The notes below the pieces were generated by a model. The model was not told where the DNA came from. It saw only the letters and a program-made list of their open reading frames with translations, and did not search any database. Shown here in pieces: positions 1-50,343 of a stretch of 50,343 nt of DNA. This DNA is from Escherichia phage vB_Eco_mar001J1, in sequence record NC_048204.1; one strand, 5' to 3'. A program made the position numbers and the translations under genes. Position 1 is the stretch's first letter; each line of letters starts with the position of its first letter.

Positions 1-127
1 AAAATTATGTCCAGCAAGTTTTTAGTAGTTCGCGTATATAATCATGACAACGAATCTTCTTCTGAAATCCCGACAATTTATGACAGGGATTTTGGATGGA
101 GTGAGCAATCGGCTGTTGAAAATGAGC
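1..127. repeat. Terminal direct duplication: 1-127 is identical to 50217-50343 (circular permutation or assembly overlap)
   Basis: Exact match of window start and end read directly from the sequence. Confidence 0.9.
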
Positions 128-1344: not shown

Positions 1345-1419
1345 TTTTAATGCTCCATATTAATTAAAGTCAATATATTAACCGCATAATAAACGCACAT
1401 GATAAAAATTTAAACAAAA

Positions 1420-1447
1420 AAAAGAGGCGACAAACGCCGCCCCTTTG
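1420..1447 (-). terminator. Possible terminator between phosphoesterase gene and lysis cassette
   Basis: Short GC stem followed by a 9-nt T-run on the minus strand. Confidence 0.35.
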
Positions 1448-1490: not shown

Positions 1491-2606
1491 TCAATTCATC
1501 ATTTCTGGATAGTGAACAAATCGCCCAACTTCTCCATGCTCTTTGTCGTAAATGATAACCGCTGCACGGCGTCGAGATCTCCAGCCACCGCGCGCGGCGT
1601 ATGCGTCTTTTGCCGCCAGGGTGCTATGCACCTCAACGATGCCAAGCGACGTTTCCGTCACGGTCTGGTGATGCCAGTGCCCTACGTGCGCATACATAGT
1701 TTTTGAGTTTCCGAAGTCCTCCCGCCAATCTGACGCGCACATCATTAGCAAAGTCTCCGGTTTACGCACTGTGTGCCCGTGATGGTACGCAAGGAAAGTT
1801 TTTCCGTATTGCGTGTGGTGAACAACGCGAGGAGAAACATCAACGTAAACGCGCGGCTCGTTCTCATATGCTGCCGCCATTGCTGCGCGTAGCCAAATCA
1901 TTCCTGATTGGTCGTGATTGCCCTCTACGATCTGGACCTCAACATGTTTATGCTTTAACAGCATTTTATCAATTGCGCGACGCATTGCACGGATTGCAAC
2001 GTAAACCAATTTTGCATATCGGCTATCTTGATCAAGTACGTGACCGCTTGCAGGTGTCACAGCCTCCAGGCCATCGCTATGAAGCATATCGCCACCAATC
2101 AGGATAACAGCCTTTTCGCTGTCCGGCGCGCACATCAAAGCATAGTCGATAAAGTTATTCATAACGCGCTCTGCCGTCGCAGTATCCCAATTTTCGCCGC
2201 ATTCGTGCTTATGGGCCATAGCGCCTAAGTGCATGTCAAAGATCGGATACAATGAAAGCGTTTCATTATAATTACGCTCCTGCAATGGAACTGGATCTAA
2301 TCGCGGCACTTCCTCGCTAAACGCCTCCATAGCTGCGCGCATCAGTGCCTCTAATTGCTCTTTATCCTTGCTGGTTTTGGTCCACTTGAGGATTATATTT
2401 CCTTCTTTGTCAGTCATTACTGACTCACCATGAACACCAAAACCAGGCGCTCCGATGGTCGATAACTGTCCTTGCTTTGCAAGACGCGCCGCGCGACGCT
2501 CGACGCTTCTCACATTCATTCCGTACTCTTGAGCGATCTGTTTATATGTCTTACCTGCCGCCCGTTCGATCTTGAATTGCTCATCTGTAATTTTTACATT
2601 TTTCAT
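1491..2606 (-). CDS. Helix-turn-helix domain fused to calcineurin-like metallophosphoesterase
   Basis: N-terminal KTYKQIAQEYGMNVRSVERRAARLAKQ; phosphoesterase motifs GGDMLHSDG, EGNHD, HHGH; start chosen at Met28 of the track ORF. Confidence 0.65.
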   Translation of the reverse strand: MKNVKITDEQFKIERAAGKTYKQIAQEYGMNVRSVERRAARLAKQGQLSTIGAPGFGVHGESVMTDKEGNIILKWTKTSKDKEQLEALMRAAMEAFSEEVPRLDPVPLQERNYNETLSLYPIFDMHLGAMAHKHECGENWDTATAERVMNNFIDYALMCAPDSEKAVILIGGDMLHSDGLEAVTPASGHVLDQDSRYAKLVYVAIRAMRRAIDKMLLKHKHVEVQIVEGNHDQSGMIWLRAAMAAAYENEPRVYVDVSPRVVHHTQYGKTFLAYHHGHTVRKPETLLMMCASDWREDFGNSKTMYAHVGHWHHQTVTETSLGIVEVHSTLAAKDAYAARGGWRSRRRAAVIIYDKEHGEVGRFVHYPEMMN

Positions 2607-2700
2607 TCTGCTACCTATCTCATCACTATATGGTACATAACTGTAACAGCGATGATAACGGGTAACGGTAGAACAAACAAGCGCCACATGATAACTATCC

Positions 2701-3186
2701 TCATTTTATGTATTCTGATTCCCAAATCATCCTCTGATTTATAGCATCATCCATTGATTTGAATGATTTTGATATTCTATTTGAGTTTACGCATATTGAA
2801 GCTACCCATAGATCATCTCTTTTATTATACATAACGCCAGTTATTCCGCTTGTATTGCTTTTTCTAACTCTACCGCAACCTTTTCTAAGGTTGTCTGAAT
2901 GACGTATTATTCTAAGGTTGTCGATATTGTCATTAGCCTCCTCGCCATCACAAACTGGGTTTTTATGATCTATGACAAATCCTTCTGGAATCTTACCGTT
3001 GTGCATTTCCCAAACTATTGAATGTCTGTAGTGCAGTTTTCCATTAAATCCTATTAAAACATATCCATATTCATTTTTGCACCCTGCAAAGTCTCCAGGT
3101 TTGACTCCTCCATTTCTCCCATTTCTCCTTACTTTCCAGTAAAGTATTCCATTTCTATATTCAAAATAATCACTCCAATTTATCAT
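2701..3186 (-). CDS. HNH homing endonuclease with AP2-like DNA-binding domain
   Basis: IDHKNPVCDGEEANDNIDNLR HNH motif and C-terminal SGITGV...W AP2-like segment. Confidence 0.8.
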   Translation of the reverse strand: MINWSDYFEYRNGILYWKVRRNGRNGGVKPGDFAGCKNEYGYVLIGFNGKLHYRHSIVWEMHNGKIPEGFVIDHKNPVCDGEEANDNIDNLRIIRHSDNLRKGCGRVRKSNTSGITGVMYNKRDDLWVASICVNSNRISKSFKSMDDAINQRMIWESEYIK

Positions 3187-3931: not shown

Positions 3932-4657
3932 TTAGCTCCGTTTGCGTGCGCGACGTTCGGTTACAGAAGGGCAAATATCGCTGATCTTAACGTATCGCGT
4001 TTTCTGCTCCTCGCCTTCTTTAAGTTTGCGCATGACAAAAATCACGCTTCCCTTGTTGTTGCCCTGCACAGGCTCACCAGTCAATCCAGACACAAAGGCA
4101 ATTCTTCCGGTGCGGGAGTATTCTACTCCACCCTCTTCGTAAACCTCACCAGTGATCCAGATGATTTCAGCCGCGTTTTTCTGCGCCTCATAAAACCATG
4201 CTGTAGAGTTGTCGGCTGGCAACAAAACATCAATTTGGTTGTTGTGCTCCATTTGCTCAATTGCTTTCTTGATAAATGGAGTTGGGTTGCTGTACGGCGG
4301 GTTAAGCCATACGTGCTTGTTGCTACCCCACCAACGCTTTAAGCAGTTTGTTTCCTTGCTATAGAACTTCTCGCAAACTGCGTTTTCCTGGCTTGCTGCC
4401 GCGTCTAGATCGTATTCACCAAATTCTGATTCCATCCACTCCACGATCTCTTGAGGCGTGCTCCACATATCTCGCACAACGTCCGGCGTAGTGCTTCCAG
4501 CGTATCGGTTTCCGCTTACCTTATAATATTGATTTGGCTTTACTGCCTGGTAATGGCCTCCAGTTGCAAGGGCATTCCCTATAAACGTTTCTCTCTCCAA
4601 CTGCTCAAAGCTAACGAATGCGTCATGGGTGTCTTTATCTAAAATATCTTTAGCCAT
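3932..4657 (-). CDS. dam: DNA N6-adenine methyltransferase (phage Dam-like)
   Basis: NPPY catalytic motif (WLNPPYSNP); start placed at MAKDIL after GGAGA RBS, alternative ATG at 4684. Confidence 0.8.
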   Translation of the reverse strand: MAKDILDKDTHDAFVSFEQLERETFIGNALATGGHYQAVKPNQYYKVSGNRYAGSTTPDVVRDMWSTPQEIVEWMESEFGEYDLDAAASQENAVCEKFYSKETNCLKRWWGSNKHVWLNPPYSNPTPFIKKAIEQMEHNNQIDVLLPADNSTAWFYEAQKNAAEIIWITGEVYEEGGVEYSRTGRIAFVSGLTGEPVQGNNKGSVIFVMRKLKEGEEQKTRYVKISDICPSVTERRARKRS

Positions 4658-4697
4658 TTTCATTTCTCCGCTATTAAAAGCCATCTCGTGTTATTGA

Positions 4698-4741
4698 ATT
4701 ATGGCGCAATCCATCGCGCCAGTTTTAACAAAAAGTGCTAT
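4698..4741 (-). promoter_or_regulatory. Cassette promoter candidate (20-mer, hairpin GGCGCGATGGATTGCGCC, CATAAT)
   Basis: Same geometry as other copies; overlaps stop of 4738..5157. Confidence 0.55.
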
Positions 4742-5157
4742 TTAAGCATGTATTCAATAGCCAACTTAAACTGATTGAATCCGTAGGCTACCGCAGCGAA
4801 TCCTCCTAAGCTGCGAACGCGACGCAAAAAAGCCTTTTGTTCATCGCTGACTGGTGATGCTTTCCCCTTGCCTGATTTATTCACTCGTTTGATCTCAATC
4901 GCTGCAAAGGGGTATTTTCCGTTTAAACCAATCAGGATGATGAAATCGCTTACTCCCTTAACCAAGCCGGACTGCTGATCAATCATCGCCGTTGCTTTAG
5001 ACTTCTCATTCTCGTTTACCGTATGCCACGCCAGCAAATAAGGATGAGCATAAGTCAACCACTGAAAACTATCTATCTGGTGATTAACTTCCCTTCTCGT
5101 GTCGGTTGGATCCCTTTCGTAAAACTCAAGATAATCGCCTTTATCAGTTATAGCCAT
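4738..5157 (-). CDS. VRR-NUC domain nuclease
   Basis: PD-(D/E)XK-like segment GVSDFIILIG...AAIEIK in a 139-aa protein. Confidence 0.6.
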   Translation of the reverse strand: MAITDKGDYLEFYERDPTDTRREVNHQIDSFQWLTYAHPYLLAWHTVNENEKSKATAMIDQQSGLVKGVSDFIILIGLNGKYPFAAIEIKRVNKSGKGKASPVSDEQKAFLRRVRSLGGFAAVAYGFNQFKLAIEYMLK

Positions 5158-7154
5158 TAAACAAACTCCCGTTTTGCAATGTTATCCTCACCTTTGCCGT
5201 TTTTGCGATGCGTTACGCGTACAGGAGGCATGATGTGATGAGCGTATGACATTATTTTACGCGCATTTCTATAGCTCGCCACCATACCAGCAATCTTGCG
5301 ATCCGGTATGTGCTGCAATGCTATTTTTCTCCATATCGTCCGGCAAATGTTGCTTTCTGACTCAGGGAAAAATCTTTCGTATGCCTTGAATGTGTCGCCG
5401 TTGGCCTCAAGCTCATAGCAAAAAACAATTCCTTTCTGGTTTTTCGTCATATCAACGCGGAAAGATTTAACGTTGCACCAATCGTTTTTGGTGTAGTGCT
5501 TGCCGCTTAACTTCTCGTTAGGATCGACAAGAGAAATATCGCAACAACGGCATACTCTCGCCACTACGTCGTTTTTTGTTCCGCAACCGCGCTTGATTAT
5601 CTTTTTCGTTCTCGGATCTACATGGTCCTCGCAAATTCTGTAAGTCCAAAAATGCTCGCATCTCTTTCCGTTATCGTCTACGTGCATACATCGGCGAGCG
5701 TAAAAGCTGTTTAGCGTTCCACATATCGGGCAAGTCTTAGGCTCTTTCCCGTTTGTAAATCTCTTTTGAAATTGCGCTTGCTCAAGAATTGGATCGAAAT
5801 ACAAATCCCCTAACTCATCCATAGTACCTGCAAAATCCAATACAAGATGATCTTTTTTCTTGAATCCCTGCTCAATGTGCCATTGCTTAAGCAGTCGCAT
5901 ACCGCGCCCCAAAAGCTGGATAAGCAATGTTAGAGATCCTATCTTTCTCAGTATTACCGAAGTATCCCAAAACGGAACGTTAACGCCAGTGGTAAGCGCC
6001 TGTACCTGGAAGATGTATTTTACTTTTCCCTCGTATGCCTCCCTCAGCCACTCTTTACGCTGATTGTCTCCAGTCTTGCCAGTTATGATCCTGTATTCGA
6101 CGCCTGGCGGAAGTGCGGCGGCGGCCTCCTTGCAGTGTCTTTCCCCTGCGCATGTAACTAAAACTCCGTTCCTGTCTTTGCATATCTCATGGACTTTAGC
6201 CATGATTTTCTGTGTCATTGTTGCGTCTTGATGGATCTTTTCTTCCATCTTGCGCAATGTTTTAGCGTCAAAGTCTGAAACGCCATCCTCGCTACTTGCT
6301 TCGAACTCTGAAAGGTCATACCCCAGGTCGCCTACGTCGCCGAAATTTGTTGGCACTACAGAACCGAATTTGATTAAGTAGTTTGTGTCTATGTTAGTCA
6401 CCTGCTCACGCCAGAATCCCTTTTTGTTCTTATCTTCAACCAGTATTGGAACCACGCCGCGAAACTCAGATCCAGTCATACCGAATATTCGCAATTCGTG
6501 CCCGTATGCCTCGCGACACCTGCGCATCATTTCCATGATTATTACGGTGTACTGTGTGCGCCCTGTTCCGAACATTGGATCGCCATTGGAATCAAATTGC
6601 TGTTCTTCTCCAATCAGTACAGGCAAATCCTTCTTAGTGGTCATCTGCTGGTAAGATTCATTATTTTCTATCGCATCAGCGAGATCCTCCCAATCCACCT
6701 GGTGACATTCATCAATACCGATAACGTGCGGAACATAATCACCTAACGACTTAAACAATCCGTTTACTACAGTGCCCTCAGAACCGACTACGATCGGAAA
6801 GTATGCGCTTTTTGTTTTCAGTCCGGCGCAATAGATTGAGTTTGGCACGCCAAGATTGCTGATCTCTTCCGAATCCTGATCAACAATTTCAGCCTGGCGA
6901 GCAAGGACCATCATTTTCAATCCCATTTTGCGGCATTGCGCAGCAACCATCGCAAACATCAAAGTTTTGCCAGCCGACACAGAAGCCTTAACGAAGAAAG
7001 GATGCTCATATTTTTTCATGCGCTTTGCGATCTCGGCATACGCAACGCACTGATAAGGATAAGGCACTATATTGCCAACCGTGAATCGCTCTTGGATGCT
7101 TTTTATTACTGCCTCGCCTAACGCTGATATTTGTTTTTCGATATTTGGGATCAT
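5157..7154 (-). CDS. SF2 ATP-dependent DNA helicase with C-terminal zinc-ribbon region
   Basis: Walker A SVSAGKTLMFAMVAA, DECH box, C-terminal CPICG...CRCC cysteine cluster. Confidence 0.8.
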   Translation of the reverse strand: MIPNIEKQISALGEAVIKSIQERFTVGNIVPYPYQCVAYAEIAKRMKKYEHPFFVKASVSAGKTLMFAMVAAQCRKMGLKMMVLARQAEIVDQDSEEISNLGVPNSIYCAGLKTKSAYFPIVVGSEGTVVNGLFKSLGDYVPHVIGIDECHQVDWEDLADAIENNESYQQMTTKKDLPVLIGEEQQFDSNGDPMFGTGRTQYTVIIMEMMRRCREAYGHELRIFGMTGSEFRGVVPILVEDKNKKGFWREQVTNIDTNYLIKFGSVVPTNFGDVGDLGYDLSEFEASSEDGVSDFDAKTLRKMEEKIHQDATMTQKIMAKVHEICKDRNGVLVTCAGERHCKEAAAALPPGVEYRIITGKTGDNQRKEWLREAYEGKVKYIFQVQALTTGVNVPFWDTSVILRKIGSLTLLIQLLGRGMRLLKQWHIEQGFKKKDHLVLDFAGTMDELGDLYFDPILEQAQFQKRFTNGKEPKTCPICGTLNSFYARRCMHVDDNGKRCEHFWTYRICEDHVDPRTKKIIKRGCGTKNDVVARVCRCCDISLVDPNEKLSGKHYTKNDWCNVKSFRVDMTKNQKGIVFCYELEANGDTFKAYERFFPESESNICRTIWRKIALQHIPDRKIAGMVASYRNARKIMSYAHHIMPPVRVTHRKNGKGEDNIAKREFV

Positions 7155-40130: not shown

Positions 40131-40174
40131 ATTATAGCGGGGCCGATAACCCCGCGTTTAGCAATTCGTGCTAT
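40131..40174 (-). promoter_or_regulatory. Cassette promoter variant (AAATAGCACGAATTGCTAAAC, hairpin, perfect TATAAT)
   Basis: 22 bp between TTGCTA and TATAAT; overlaps stop of kinase-like gene. Confidence 0.5.
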
Positions 40175-40761
40175 TTAATCTGTGTGTGTTTCCATTTGAC
40201 AGTATTGACGATCTCGTTTACAGCAAGTTCCTGCTTGCCGTCCTGCAAGTGGAAATCATAGTGATGGATTCGATAGTGATAACCGCTCAGGTCAATATAG
40301 TTTCGCGAATCGCCAGCAAACGTGAAGCCGTCGCGATGCAATCGGCAAATATGCACTTCATGCCCTGCCTTAACAAGCGGCTTGATTTCTTCGGGGAATC
40401 CGCCATCACTGATCACAACCGCCAAATCTCGGTACATATCGTGAATCTCTTCAACCATTCGACGCCCGAAATAGTGATCCCCAAAAACTGGCTTCATTAC
40501 ATCCTCGCTAATCCAGATCATGAATTGTCGAGGTGACTTGCCGCCTAAGATAACTTGAGGCTTTTCTTTTTGCTCTCTGTCGTTGTACAGGTCCATAAAT
40601 TCATCGTATCGAGTCGGGCCAAGCATAGAAAAAGCAATGTCGAACATAGGTTGCTTGAATGATGCCTTAACCGCTGGGTAACGATGGCCCGTTAGGTAAG
40701 CTGCAATAGTGTCCTTCCCGCAACCTGGAGGCCCATTAAGGATGATAATGTCTCGTTTCAT
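40171..40761 (-). CDS. P-loop nucleotide kinase-like protein
   Basis: Walker A ILNGPPGCGKDT near N-terminus; 196 aa. Confidence 0.55.
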   Translation of the reverse strand: MKRDIIILNGPPGCGKDTIAAYLTGHRYPAVKASFKQPMFDIAFSMLGPTRYDEFMDLYNDREQKEKPQVILGGKSPRQFMIWISEDVMKPVFGDHYFGRRMVEEIHDMYRDLAVVISDGGFPEEIKPLVKAGHEVHICRLHRDGFTFAGDSRNYIDLSGYHYRIHHYDFHLQDGKQELAVNEIVNTVKWKHTQIK

Positions 40762-50186: not shown

Positions 50187-50343
50187 TGTTTCATCGAAAC
50201 GAAACAACCAAAAGGTAAAATTATGTCCAGCAAGTTTTTAGTAGTTCGCGTATATAATCATGACAACGAATCTTCTTCTGAAATCCCGACAATTTATGAC
50301 AGGGATTTTGGATGGAGTGAGCAATCGGCTGTTGAAAATGAGC

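What the first reader, a model, noticed from the sequence alone, without database searches (positions are those of the whole stretch)
1491..2606. Helix-turn-helix domain fused to a metallophosphoesterase
A 371-aa protein combines an N-terminal HTH resembling resolvase/Cro-type DNA-binding domains with a calcineurin-like phosphoesterase core (GDxxH, GNHD, HHGH). A DNA-targeted phosphoesterase could be a nuclease or phosphatase acting in DNA metabolism or host takeover, or a protein phosphatase recruited to DNA.
Basis: partly seen in the sequence, partly recalled or inferred. Interest (0 to 1): 0.4.

Follow-up and report, generated by a model that had tools for sequence, protein, structure and literature searches.

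The report
Phage DNA-binding domain fused to phosphoesterase
The gene is real and is a DNA-binding helix-turn-helix joined to an intact two-metal phosphoesterase, most likely a stand-alone DNA nuclease of the phage replication module, but it belongs to a very common, already catalogued phage family that nobody has tested biochemically.

Summary
The window is the complete genome of the T1-like coliphage vB_Eco_mar001J1 (Drexlerviridae). The 371-aa ORF lies on the minus strand at 1491-2606. RefSeq calls it gp58, "DNA repair exonuclease", from a GTG 81 nt upstream that homologues do not support.

Both halves of the observation hold:
- **N-terminal domain.** Residues 8-44 form a basic three-helix HTH of the sigma-70 region 4 / LuxR kind, not the Cro kind.
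- **Core.** Residues 114-365 form a metallophosphoesterase core. All metal-ligand motifs (DMH, GDMLH, GNHD, HHGH, GHWHH) are about 100% conserved across 148 divergent representatives.

The family is PHROG 704. It has about 4,600 clusters at 50% identity and occurs in more than 2,000 phage records.

Structure search confirms the fold. Mre11 ranks first but only marginally, so the subfamily is unresolved. The protein has no capping domain and the genome encodes no Rad50/SbcC partner.

The gene always sits in replication or nucleotide-metabolism modules. It is the last gene of the helicase-Dam operon in T1-like phages, and it lies between the initiator and the DnaB helicase in 38 of 38 temperate E. 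coli phage loci.

Best reading: a DNA-tethered, Rad50-independent nuclease, which is inferred and not shown. I found no experimental work on it. This is an ordinary, already annotated feature of modest interest.

The parts
1491..2606 (-). Coding sequence of the 371-aa HTH-metallophosphoesterase (RefSeq HOV63_gp58, T1 ST16 orthologue), stop codon included
   Evidence: ORF list. 100% identical to NC_048206.1 gp58. Full-length PHROG 704 match, E 4e-149. Start confirmed by homologue alignment.
2607..2687 (-). 5' extension used by the RefSeq annotation (GTG start, 27 extra residues); probably not translated as part of this protein
   Evidence: The extension is absent from all homologues outside the closest cluster. 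Sequence read.
2475..2585 (-). N-terminal three-helix helix-turn-helix (residues 8-44), basic (pI of residues 1-50 = 10.2)
   Evidence: AlphaFold helices 8-16, 21-28 and 32-44, pLDDT about 90. Pfam HTH hits in this protein are weak and in relatives strong. The family profile hits GerE 1fse at E 0.03. Coordinates and pI.
2436..2474 (-). Flexible linker (residues 45-57) between the HTH and the rest of the protein
   Evidence: pLDDT below 50 for residues 51-57 in the better model. Length is variable among relatives.
2316..2435 (-). Family-specific beta-hairpin plus helix (residues 58-97) with conserved G69 and W75
   Evidence: Strands 58-65 and 71-78, helix 80-97. G69 is 93% and W75 94% conserved in 148 representatives.
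1512..2267 (-). Metallophosphoesterase catalytic core (residues 114-365)
   Evidence: Alternating strand/helix pattern with pLDDT mostly above 90. Foldseek probability 1.00 to Mre11, Rv0805, PolD DP1, Vps29 and GpdQ. Pfam Metallophos hit at E 0.011 here and in 19 of 87 relatives.
2229..2237 (-). Motif I, D124-M-H126 (within YPIFDMHLG)
   Evidence: 100% conserved. Translation checked.
2079..2093 (-). Motif II, G172-D173-M-L-H176
   Evidence: D173 100%, H176 96% conserved..
2019..2060 (-). Family-specific conserved loop VTPASGHVLDQDSR (residues 183-196) after motif II
   Evidence: T184 invariant; L191, D192 and R196 95% conserved, D194 89% conserved; P185 at least 90% conserved in alignment A3. 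The model is poorly defined here.
1911..1922 (-). Motif III, G229-N230-H231-D232
   Evidence: N230 and H231 100% conserved..
1773..1784 (-). Motif IV, H275-H276-G277-H278
   Evidence: H276 and G277 100%, H278 89% conserved..
1668..1682 (-). Motif V, G309-H310-W-H312-H313
   Evidence: G309 98%, H310 95%, H312 99% conserved..
1421..1446 (-). Intrinsic-terminator-like hairpin (11-bp stem followed by a T run) 45 nt after the stop codon; marks the end of the transcription unit
   Evidence: Terminator scan. T1 has an annotated terminator at the same place, after ST16.
40171..40761 (-). dNMP kinase gene (gp31), located elsewhere in this genome. Its orthologue follows the phosphoesterase gene directly or one gene away in Kagunavirus and many Drexlerviridae. 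A possible functional associate, inferred only.
   Evidence: phrog_139, E 6e-51. 49% identical to Golestan gp19 and 45% to T1 ST62. Gene order and PMC13164509.

Best explanation
The gene encodes a catalytically competent two-metal phosphodiesterase that acts on DNA. It is a stand-alone nuclease that works like Mre11/SbcD but without a Rad50/SbcC ATPase and without a capping domain. A basic three-helix HTH at the N-terminus, joined by a flexible linker, holds the enzyme on duplex DNA. The catalytic core then cuts or trims DNA ends, hairpins or branched intermediates. The gene is the last one in the phage's replication/DNA-metabolism operon (helicase, VRR-NUC, Dam ... phosphoesterase, terminator). 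I therefore place its action in phage DNA replication and recombination-dependent concatemer formation. In virulent lineages it may have a secondary role feeding DNA breakdown products to the phage dNMP kinase. Shown: the ORF, the HTH fold, the phosphoesterase fold, the complete and conserved metal site, the absence of a partner ATPase, and the operon position. Inferred: DNA as the substrate, DNA binding by the HTH, and the biological role.
For: 1. All five metallophosphoesterase motifs are present and the ligand residues are 95-100% conserved in 148 representatives at 33-55% identity, so the site is under selection.
2. The motif spelling is the nuclease-type one (DxHLG, GDxxH, GNHD, GHxH). 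It aligns in register with T4 gp47 over 185 columns.
3. Mre11 is the top Foldseek hit for both models: 4tug at E 1.2e-6 and 4o43 at E 1.6e-7.
4. The N-terminal HTH is basic and family-wide.
5. Gene context is consistent. Of 80 IMG/VR loci, 41 of the 42 T1-like loci have helicase, VRR-NUC and/or Dam upstream and/or SH3-holin-endolysin downstream of the gene (two cut loci show only the downstream side, one only the upstream side, and one T1-like locus has no holin or endolysin hit). In all 38 temperate E. coli phage loci a DnaB helicase follows the gene, 31-34 bp downstream in 35 and after an inserted HNH gene in 3; a Lin1244_N initiator lies upstream in 36 of them.
6. Other lineages place it next to a primase (VAP7), a thymidylate synthase (N4-like roseophage) or DNA polymerase A.
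7. A terminator directly follows the gene, and a separate promoter-like site precedes the holin gene.
8. In Kagunavirus the order is phosphoesterase, HAD 3'-phosphatase, dNMP kinase. PMC13164509 reports the same kinds of neighbours as the most frequent ones in Drexlerviridae lacking SH3, and the exonuclease-holin-endolysin-spanin module in 508 of 522 genomes.
9. Precedents: T4 gp46/47 is required for recombination and host-DNA degradation (record note), and a mycobacteriophage metallophosphoesterase degrades host DNA (PMC12287305).
Against: - No biochemical or genetic data exist for any member in the searchable literature.
- Structural similarity does not single out nucleases. Rv0805 (a cyclic-nucleotide phosphodiesterase), Vps29, SMPDL3A, PolD DP1, acid sphingomyelinase and GpdQ score within tenfold of Mre11, and TM-scores are only 0.4-0.45.
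- Curated Mre11/SbcD models do not match, and hhalign E-values are only 0.03 and 0.014.
- There is no capping domain and no Rad50/SbcC partner, both of which govern DNA handling in true Mre11/SbcD.
- This phage already has a RecE-like exonuclease, Erf and SSB for recombination.
- Neighbouring genes differ widely between distant lineages, and no conserved partner was found.
Confidence: 0.5

Rival explanations
1. The enzyme is a small-molecule or end-group phosphoesterase rather than a DNA-backbone nuclease. It would hydrolyse nucleotides, cyclic or oligo-nucleotide signals, or 2',3'-cyclic or 3'-phosphate ends. It would act in nucleotide-pool management or counter-defence together with the HAD phosphatase and dNMP kinase that neighbour it in some phages.
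For: Foldseek scores for the cyclic-nucleotide phosphodiesterase Rv0805, for YfcE/MJ0936-type diesterases, for SMPDL3A (a nucleotide phosphodiesterase) and for GpdQ are as good as for Mre11. It is adjacent to a PNKP-type HAD 3'-phosphatase and a dNMP kinase in Kagunavirus and many Drexlerviridae. It lies next to a dGTP-diphosphohydrolase-like gene in L102 and near RtcB in L103. A bacterial calcineurin-like enzyme paired with a HAD phosphatase acts on dNTPs (bioRxiv 2026.01.15.699771).
Against: A family-wide DNA-binding HTH has no obvious use for a small-molecule enzyme. The 3'-phosphatase function is already supplied by the separate HAD protein, so an end-healing role is redundant. The window phage lacks the HAD gene altogether. 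The most constant neighbours are helicases and initiators, not nucleotide enzymes. There is no match to any defence or counter-defence model in PADLOC.
Confidence: 0.2
2. The protein is a structural or accessory component of the phage replisome. It would be a helicase-associated factor occupying the slot of a helicase loader, or a proofreading or primer-trimming exonuclease analogous to the PolD DP1 / polymerase B-subunit class of phosphoesterase-fold proteins. The HTH would position it at the origin or on the template.
For: In all 38 temperate E. coli phage loci a DnaB-family helicase gene follows it, 31-34 bp downstream in 35 and after an inserted HNH gene in 3; a replication initiator lies upstream in 36 of them. 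This is the initiator-loader-helicase order. It lies next to the primase in VAP7. PolD DP1 is among the best structural matches at E 4e-7, and metagenome annotators named homologues 'DNA polymerase II small subunit'.
Against: There is no OB fold, and this phage encodes no polymerase. In T1-like phages the gene is about 2 kb from the helicase, with Dam and small genes in between. In several distant lineages it follows tail or lysis genes with no replication gene nearby. No interaction evidence exists.
Confidence: 0.12
3. The protein is primarily a transcription regulator. The HTH binds operators, and the phosphoesterase domain serves as a ligand-sensing or signal-degrading module that tunes the switch from replication to late or lysis gene expression.
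For: The HTH resembles sigma-70 region 4, LuxR/GerE, LysR and Fis-type regulators. The gene lies at the boundary of the replication and lysis modules in T1-like phages and in L102. Some records annotate homologues as 'transcriptional regulator' or 'DNA binding protein'.
Against: The HTH is the least conserved part of the protein (mean column identity about 0.3-0.4 against 0.5-0.7 in the core), whereas the catalytic site is invariant. This points to catalysis as the selected function. A terminator separates the gene from the lysis cassette. Some relatives lack the HTH entirely (4 of 148 representatives; Vibrio, Campylobacter and Flavobacterium phage homologues match only from residue 62-84 onwards).
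Confidence: 0.1
4. The protein is a Ser/Thr/Tyr protein phosphatase of the lambda NinI (PPP) kind, recruited to DNA.
For: It belongs to the same superfamily. One phage record annotates a homologue as 'putative serine/threonine protein phosphatase'.
Against: The PPP signature motifs GDxxDRG and GNHE are replaced by GDMLHSDG and GNHD. hhalign against lambda NinI gives no meaningful alignment, with probability 0.2%. No PPP-family structure appears among the 50 Foldseek matches listed in either search.
Confidence: 0.03

Closest known systems
Mre11 / SbcD / T4 gp47 nucleases (with Rad50 / SbcC / gp46)
   Same: Same fold and same binuclear metal site. The motif spelling is the same (DxHLG, GDxxH, GNHD, GHxH) and aligns in register with T4 gp47. 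Mre11 is the top structural hit. Like gp47, it is encoded among phage replication and recombination genes, and gp46/47 is needed for recombination and host-DNA breakdown.
   Different: No C-terminal capping domain. No ATPase partner anywhere in the genome. No match to curated Mre11/SbcD models. It has an N-terminal HTH, a beta-hairpin module and a conserved VTPxSGHxLDxDxR loop that those proteins lack. TM-scores are only about 0.4-0.45.
Mycobacteriophage A10ZJ24 Gp48 (cluster A phage metallophosphoesterase; PMC12287305)
   Same: A phage-encoded stand-alone metallophosphoesterase with the five motifs. It is reported to have phosphodiesterase activity and to damage host genomic DNA early in infection.
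   Different: I did not compare the sequences. That paper does not describe an HTH fusion. Its role is counter-defence in mycobacteria, and any homology beyond the superfamily level is untested.
PolD small subunit DP1 (archaeal proofreading exonuclease) and eukaryotic polymerase B-subunits
   Same: A phosphoesterase-fold protein acting within a replisome. Foldseek E 4e-7, comparable to Mre11. Homologues carry this name in metagenome annotations.
   Different: No OB fold, no DP2-type polymerase partner, and no polymerase gene in this phage.
Lambda NinI protein phosphatase
   Same: A phage-encoded member of the same superfamily, located in the early-right operon of a temperate phage.
   Different: Different motif spelling, no HTH, and no detectable profile similarity.
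Ligase-associated nuclease MPE / PdeM (Pseudomonas; PDB 6nvo)
   Same: A small stand-alone bacterial metallophosphoesterase that is a DNA nuclease working without Rad50. There is weak similarity around GNHD (NCBIfam TIGR04123 at E 0.0038; PDB 6nvo at E 2.9).
   Different: The similarity is confined to about 25 residues and falls far below the family cut-off (16.7 against 150 bits). No HTH, and a different gene context.

Membership tests
Calcineurin-like metallophosphoesterase superfamily | Five motifs supplying the binuclear metal ligands (DxH, GD, GNH[DE], H, GHxH) | tested here: met
   DMH 124-126, GDMLH 172-176, GNHD 229-232, HHGH 275-278 and GHWHH 309-313. Ligand residues are 95-100% conserved in 148 representatives.
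Calcineurin-like metallophosphoesterase superfamily | Four-layer alpha/beta-beta/alpha sandwich fold | tested here: met
   AlphaFold model with pLDDT 85.6. Foldseek probability 1.00 to many solved superfamily members.
Calcineurin-like metallophosphoesterase superfamily | Score above the Pfam PF00149 gathering threshold | tested here: not met
   16.6 bits against a cut-off of 21.5. Among relatives, 19 of 87 hit PF00149 and 16 of 87 hit PF12850 at E <= 0.01. The clade is divergent.
PHROG 704 ('DNA repair exonuclease') | Full-length profile match | tested here: met
   E 4.1e-149, residues 5-370 on profile positions 3-389 of 390.
Mre11/SbcD nuclease family | Nuclease-type motif spelling (DxHLG, GDxxH, GNHD, GHxH) | tested here: met
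   Read directly from the sequence. Aligned in register with T4 gp47.
Mre11/SbcD nuclease family | Capping (DNA-specificity) domain C-terminal to the phosphoesterase core | tested here: not met
   The protein ends at residue 371, directly after the last core strands and a 4-residue helix. Only the core aligns with Mre11 (TMt about 0.44).
Mre11/SbcD nuclease family | Rad50/SbcC-type ATPase partner encoded with it | tested here: not met
   None among the 78 annotated genes. No such partner stood out in the gene lists of the other lineages inspected; in the 80 related loci only a fixed set of query proteins, none of them SbcC/Rad50-like, was searched.
Mre11/SbcD nuclease family | Significant match to curated family models or profiles | tested here: not met
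   No Mre11/SbcD model in NCBIfam at E <= 1. hhalign E 0.03 against gp47 and 0.014 against SbcD. Foldseek does not separate Mre11 from other subfamilies.
Mre11/SbcD nuclease family | Mn2+-dependent exo/endonuclease activity on DNA | not testable with these tools
   Requires purified protein.
PPP-type protein phosphatases (lambda NinI) | GDxxDRG and GNHE motifs, and profile similarity | tested here: not met
   The motifs read GDMLHSDG and GNHD. hhalign probability is 0.2%.
PolD DP1 / polymerase B-subunit | OB fold preceding the phosphoesterase domain, and a cognate polymerase catalytic subunit | tested here: not met
   The N-terminal part is an HTH plus a hairpin and helix. No polymerase gene is present in the genome.
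Tri-helical HTH DNA-binding domains (sigma-70 region 4 / LuxR-GerE / HTH_23-28 kind) | Three-helix bundle with a recognisable profile match | tested here: met
   Helices 8-16, 21-28 and 32-44. This protein's own hits are sub-threshold. At family level, Sigma70_r4_2 reaches 1.5e-9 and GerE 2.4e-8, and 12-14 of the 87 members hit each of HTH_1, HTH_8 and Sigma70_r4_2.
Tri-helical HTH DNA-binding domains | Actual DNA binding | not testable with these tools
   There is only indirect support: pI 10.2 for residues 1-50.

The most novel reading that the evidence does not exclude
The family is a previously unrecognised core replisome component of thousands of phages. It would be an active phosphoesterase-fold exonuclease, guided by its own HTH, that works physically with the replicative helicase (occupying the initiator-'loader'-DnaB slot in temperate coliphages). 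It would be a bacterial-virus counterpart of the archaeal and eukaryotic DP1 / B-subunit class, rather than a repair nuclease.
Probability: 0.12. Interest if true: 0.65.

Novelty: new member of a known kind. Interest (0 to 1): 0.27.

Why it matters
The protein is one of the persistent genes of T1-like phages: the exonuclease-holin-endolysin-spanin module it belongs to was reported in 508 of 522 Drexlerviridae genomes. It recurs in Guernseyvirinae, Dhillonvirus, Ackermannviridae, N4-like and temperate coliphages, yet no member has been characterised.

Knowing what it cuts would clarify two things. The first is how phages that lack their own polymerase and any Rad50-type partner process replication and recombination intermediates or recycle DNA. 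The second is whether the database label 'DNA repair exonuclease', which rests only on superfamily resemblance, is justified.

For this particular window the finding adds nothing beyond existing annotation, apart from a corrected start codon.

Tried and rejected
- **Sequence searches of the PDB** with the protein and with two family profiles gave no phosphoesterase hit. Only fold comparison worked.
- **Two structure models and two PDB fold searches** could not assign a subfamily.
- **hhalign against single sequences** of gp47, SbcD and NinI has little power.
- **PADLOC** gave no hit.
- **The search for related loci with diverse alignments** failed for lack of a conserved 7-10 residue stretch, so distant contexts were sampled one by one instead.
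- **A conserved partner downstream** in distant lineages, where proteins of 657-698 aa follow the gene, was not found: there were no informative matches.
- **An RNA/DNA end-healing role with an adjacent 'polynucleotide kinase'** was weakened. That neighbour turned out to be only the HAD 3'-phosphatase domain, so it already supplies that activity. The next gene is a dNMP kinase.
- **Reading the gene as part of the lysis cassette** is rejected because a terminator and a promoter-like site separate them.
- **Seven literature searches** found no functional study of the family. The anti-Tmn paper was irrelevant to this protein, and the PUA-Cal-HAD paper gave only an analogy for the small-molecule rival.
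- **Assignment to classical T1 genes** (1, 2, 2.5) could not be checked, because the relevant papers are not in the library.
Full report
**What the window is.** The 50,343-base window is the whole genome of Escherichia phage vB_Eco_mar001J1 (NC_048206.1 / LR027388.1; Drexlerviridae, Tempevirinae, Warwickvirus), rotated relative to the database record. It is an ordinary T1-like virulent coliphage. It has a terminase, head and tail genes, a primase, two helicases, Dam and Dcm-type methylases, a RecE-like exonuclease, Erf, SSB and a holin-endolysin-spanin cassette. It has no DNA polymerase and no SbcC/Rad50-like ATPase.

**Checking the observation: the ORF and its start.**
- The ORF is on the minus strand. 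It runs from GTG 2687 or ATG 2606 down to the stop codon at 1491-1493.
- RefSeq annotates the 398-aa GTG version as gp58, 'DNA repair exonuclease'.
- Aligned homologues at 60-92% identity from other genera all begin at the ATG position, with MxxxKI(T/S)DEQ.
- The PHROG 704 profile aligns from residue 5 of the 371-aa form.

| Motif | Sequence | Residues |
|---|---|---|
| I | DMH | 124-126 |
| II | GDMLH | 172-176 |
| III | GNHD | 229-232 |
| IV | HHGH | 275-278 |
| V | GHWHH | 309-313 |

**Is it more than chance?**
- An exhaustive HMMER search of 1.84 billion cluster representatives found 4,630 clusters at E <= 1e-3 and 1,057 at E <= 1e-30. Most are 370-420 aa long.
- tblastn found the protein in 2,046 phage records.
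- In an alignment of 148 representatives at only 33-55% identity, D124, H126, D173, N230, H231, H276 and G277 are invariant. H312 is 99%, H176 96%, H310 95% and H278 89% conserved (the same picture appears).
- The metal site is therefore intact and under strong purifying selection. This is not a degenerate scaffold of the Vps29 or polymerase B-subunit kind.

**Structure of the core.**
- A first AlphaFold model from a shallow alignment had pLDDT 75.6. A second, from 80 diverse sequences, reached 85.6, with the core mostly above 90.
- Foldseek against the PDB gave probability 1.00 for many metallophosphoesterases.
- Mre11 ranked first both times: M. jannaschii Mre11 (4tug) at E 1.2e-6, and the MRE11 entry 4o43 at E 1.6e-7.
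- However, Rv0805, Vps29, SMPDL3A, PolD DP1, acid sphingomyelinase and GpdQ follow within about tenfold, and TM-scores are only 0.4-0.45.
- The fold is therefore certain and the subfamily is not.

**Sequence-level placement.**
- Pfam Metallophos scores 16.6 bits, below its 21.5-bit cut-off.
- NCBIfam gives only a 29-residue sub-threshold touch to PdeM.
- PDB sequence and profile searches find no phosphoesterase.
- hhalign against T4 gp47 is weak (E 0.03) but puts all motifs in register over 185 columns.
- hhalign against E. coli SbcD aligns only the GNHD region.
- hhalign against the lambda NinI phosphatase aligns nothing sensible.

**The N-terminal part.**
- The model has three helices (8-16, 21-28, 32-44) at pLDDT about 90.
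- These are followed by a disordered linker (residues 51-57, pLDDT below 50).
- Next comes a beta-hairpin (58-65, 71-78) with the conserved G69 and W75, then a helix (80-97).
- Residues 1-50 have pI 10.2.
- This protein's own Pfam HTH hits are sub-threshold: Sigma70_r4_2 at 0.0018, HTH_28 at 0.0097 and HTH_23 at 0.022.
- Scanning 87 family members individually gives clear HTH matches: Sigma70_r4_2 best at 1.5e-9 (12 members), GerE at 2.4e-8, HTH_1 (14 members), HTH_8 (12 members), and HTH_28, HTH_23 and HTH_38.
- The family profile touches GerE 1fse at E 0.03.
- Of the 148 representatives, 144 have room for this domain.
- The HTH is the least conserved part of the protein.
- A few lineages lack it: Vibrio, Campylobacter and Flavobacterium phage homologues match only from residue 62-84 onwards.
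- So the HTH is real, is of the sigma-70 region 4 / LuxR / homeodomain-like kind rather than the Cro kind, and is an accessory module on a conserved hairpin-plus-phosphoesterase core.

**Transcription unit.** On the minus strand the order is: helicase (5157-7154), VRR-NUC (4738-5157; Pfam 4.8e-10), Dam (3932-4684), small ORFs, an HNH homing endonuclease (2701-3186), and then the phosphoesterase. An 11-bp-stem terminator with a T run lies 45 nt after its stop (1446-1421), and a promoter-like site (1414-1386) precedes the holin gene. T1 carries an annotated terminator in the same place after its orthologue ST16. The gene therefore closes the replication/DNA-metabolism operon. Its constant adjacency to the lysis cassette (508 of 522 Drexlerviridae; PMC13164509) is positional rather than co-transcriptional.

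**Context in relatives: the two groups among 80 IMG/VR loci.**
- Of the 42 T1-like loci, 41 show helicase, VRR-NUC and/or Dam upstream and/or optional SH3, holin and endolysin downstream of the phosphoesterase gene; two cut loci show only the downstream side, one only the upstream side, and one T1-like locus has no holin or endolysin hit.
- In all 38 temperate E. coli phage loci a DnaB-family helicase gene follows the phosphoesterase gene, 31-34 bp downstream in 35 and after an inserted HNH gene in 3; a Lin1244_N replication initiator lies upstream in 36, often with a variable antirepressor in between. This arrangement sits to the right of cI/cro.
- 35 of 5,426 complete E. coli genomes carry this prophage form.

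**Context in relatives: other lineages.**
- It lies next to a primase in the Ackermannviridae phage VAP7.
- It lies next to thymidylate synthase in an N4-like roseophage.
- It lies downstream of DNA polymerase A and upstream of a dGTP-diphosphohydrolase-like gene in L102.
- In several alphaproteobacterial-type phages it simply follows tail or lysis genes.
- In Kagunavirus it sits in a small island: superinfection-immunity gene, phosphoesterase, 'polynucleotide kinase', P-loop protein.
- No ATPase of the SbcC/Rad50 kind stood out in the gene lists I inspected. The larger genes following it in distant lineages gave no informative matches.

**The kinase neighbours.**
- The Kagunavirus 'polynucleotide kinase' and T1 ST64 contain only the HAD-type 3'-phosphatase domain of PNKP (PF25109, E 4.5e-20 and 6.9e-17).
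- The next gene is a dNMP kinase (phrog_139). It is homologous to T1 ST62 and to the window's gp31 at 40171-40761.
- The window phage has no HAD gene.
- PMC13164509 independently reports 'polynucleotide kinase' and dNMP kinase as the most frequent genes directly after the exonuclease in Drexlerviridae that lack the SH3 gene.
- This recurrent linkage fits a nuclease whose products enter nucleotide salvage. It also removes the need for the phosphoesterase itself to be an end-healing phosphatase.

**Most likely mechanism.** Four lines point to a DNA-directed phosphodiesterase that works like Mre11/SbcD/gp47 but on its own, with the tethered HTH replacing the DNA-handling functions of the capping domain and of Rad50:
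- the invariant binuclear site;
- the nuclease-type motif spelling;
- Mre11 as the top, if narrow, structural match;
- a basic family-wide HTH and the replication-module context.

Its presence in the early replication operon of temperate phages argues against wholesale host-DNA destruction as the general role, since that would kill prospective lysogens. I therefore favour processing of ends, hairpins or branched intermediates during replication and recombination-dependent concatemer formation. Salvage would be a secondary benefit in virulent phages. Precedents are T4 gp46/47 (recombination and host-DNA degradation) and the mycobacteriophage Gp48 metallophosphoesterase that damages host DNA (PMC12287305). 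I put this at about 0.5. Substrate, DNA binding and role are all inferred.

**Rivals.**
- **Small-molecule or end-group phosphoesterase (0.2).** This is kept alive by the equal structural scores of Rv0805, YfcE, SMPDL3A and GpdQ and by the nucleotide-enzyme neighbours. The HTH counts against it.
- **Helicase-associated replisome factor or DP1-like exonuclease (0.12).** This rests on the initiator-X-DnaB gene order and the DP1 structural match.
- **Regulator with a sensory phosphoesterase domain (0.1).** This is disfavoured because the catalytic site, not the HTH, is the conserved part.
- **Protein phosphatase (0.03).** This fails the motif and profile tests.

**Comparison with what is known, and verdict.**
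- The protein is a member of the metallophosphoesterase superfamily and of PHROG 704.
- It fails three of the four testable defining features of Mre11/SbcD: the capping domain, the ATPase partner and a curated-model match. It should not be filed as 'SbcD/Mre11' or as a demonstrated 'DNA repair exonuclease'.
- Homologues are already annotated in public records as phosphoesterase, metallophosphoesterase, winged-HTH protein or DNA repair exonuclease.
- The two-domain observation is therefore not new. What is missing is any experiment.
- Seven literature searches found none.
- The finding is correct but ordinary: a new member of a known kind, with modest interest only because the family is so widespread and untested.

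Noticed in passing
window 2607-2687 (minus strand): RefSeq (HOV63_gp58) starts this gene at GTG 2687, giving 398 aa. Homologues from other genera all start at the ATG at 2606, so the 27-residue extension is probably an annotation artefact of choosing the longest ORF.
   Followed up: yes
window 2615-2689 (minus strand): A 24-codon ORF in another frame (MWRLFVLPLPVIIAVTVMYHIVMR, hydrophobic) starts 8 nt after a GAGGA Shine-Dalgarno-like sequence, between the HNH gene and the phosphoesterase start. It could be a small membrane peptide or chance. Conservation was not examined.
   Followed up: no
window 1-127 and 50217-50343: The first and last 127 bases of the window are identical, and the database record has the same 127-base overlap at its own ends. 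This looks like the terminal overlap left by a k=127 assembler on a circularly permuted genome, not a biological terminal repeat.
   Followed up: partly
window 2701-3186 (minus strand); also T1 ST15 (L012 42028-42510), VSe103 gp23 (L005 6171-6671), L014 8148-8852, L085/L088/L099: Homing-endonuclease genes (HNH, or GIY-YIG in one case) sit immediately next to the phosphoesterase gene in many unrelated lineages, sometimes upstream and sometimes downstream. In three temperate phages one is wedged between it and the DnaB helicase gene. The gene appears to be a favoured landing site for mobile endonucleases.
   Followed up: partly
L012 (phage T1) 4948-5478 and L002 (phage Golestan) 8128-8616: Genes annotated 'polynucleotide kinase' contain only the HAD-type 3'-phosphatase domain of PNKP (PF25109) and no kinase domain. 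The neighbouring P-loop gene is a dNMP kinase (phrog_139). The product name is therefore misleading.
   Followed up: yes
window 40171-40761 (minus strand): gp31, annotated 'ATP-binding protein', is a dNMP kinase (phrog_139, E 6e-51). Unlike T1 and Kagunavirus, this phage has no HAD phosphatase gene beside it or anywhere else.
   Followed up: yes
public records MG065657.1 (Campylobacter phage C4) and 14 similar records; P0050 (Streptococcus phage MBBL140): About 50-kb genomes labelled as Campylobacter or Streptococcus phages carry a copy of this gene 77-85% identical to the coliphage one and look like T1-like coliphages. The host labels are probably wrong (contaminant phages).
   Followed up: no
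window 1386-1446 (minus strand): A strong intrinsic-terminator-like hairpin (1446-1421) is followed by a sigma-70-like promoter match (1414-1386) just upstream of the holin gene. This suggests the lysis cassette is a separate transcription unit.
   Followed up: partly
L103 6723-7898 (metagenome phage contig): An RtcB RNA ligase gene lies on the opposite strand, one small gene away from a distant homologue of the phosphoesterase. This was seen only once and its significance is unknown.
   Followed up: no
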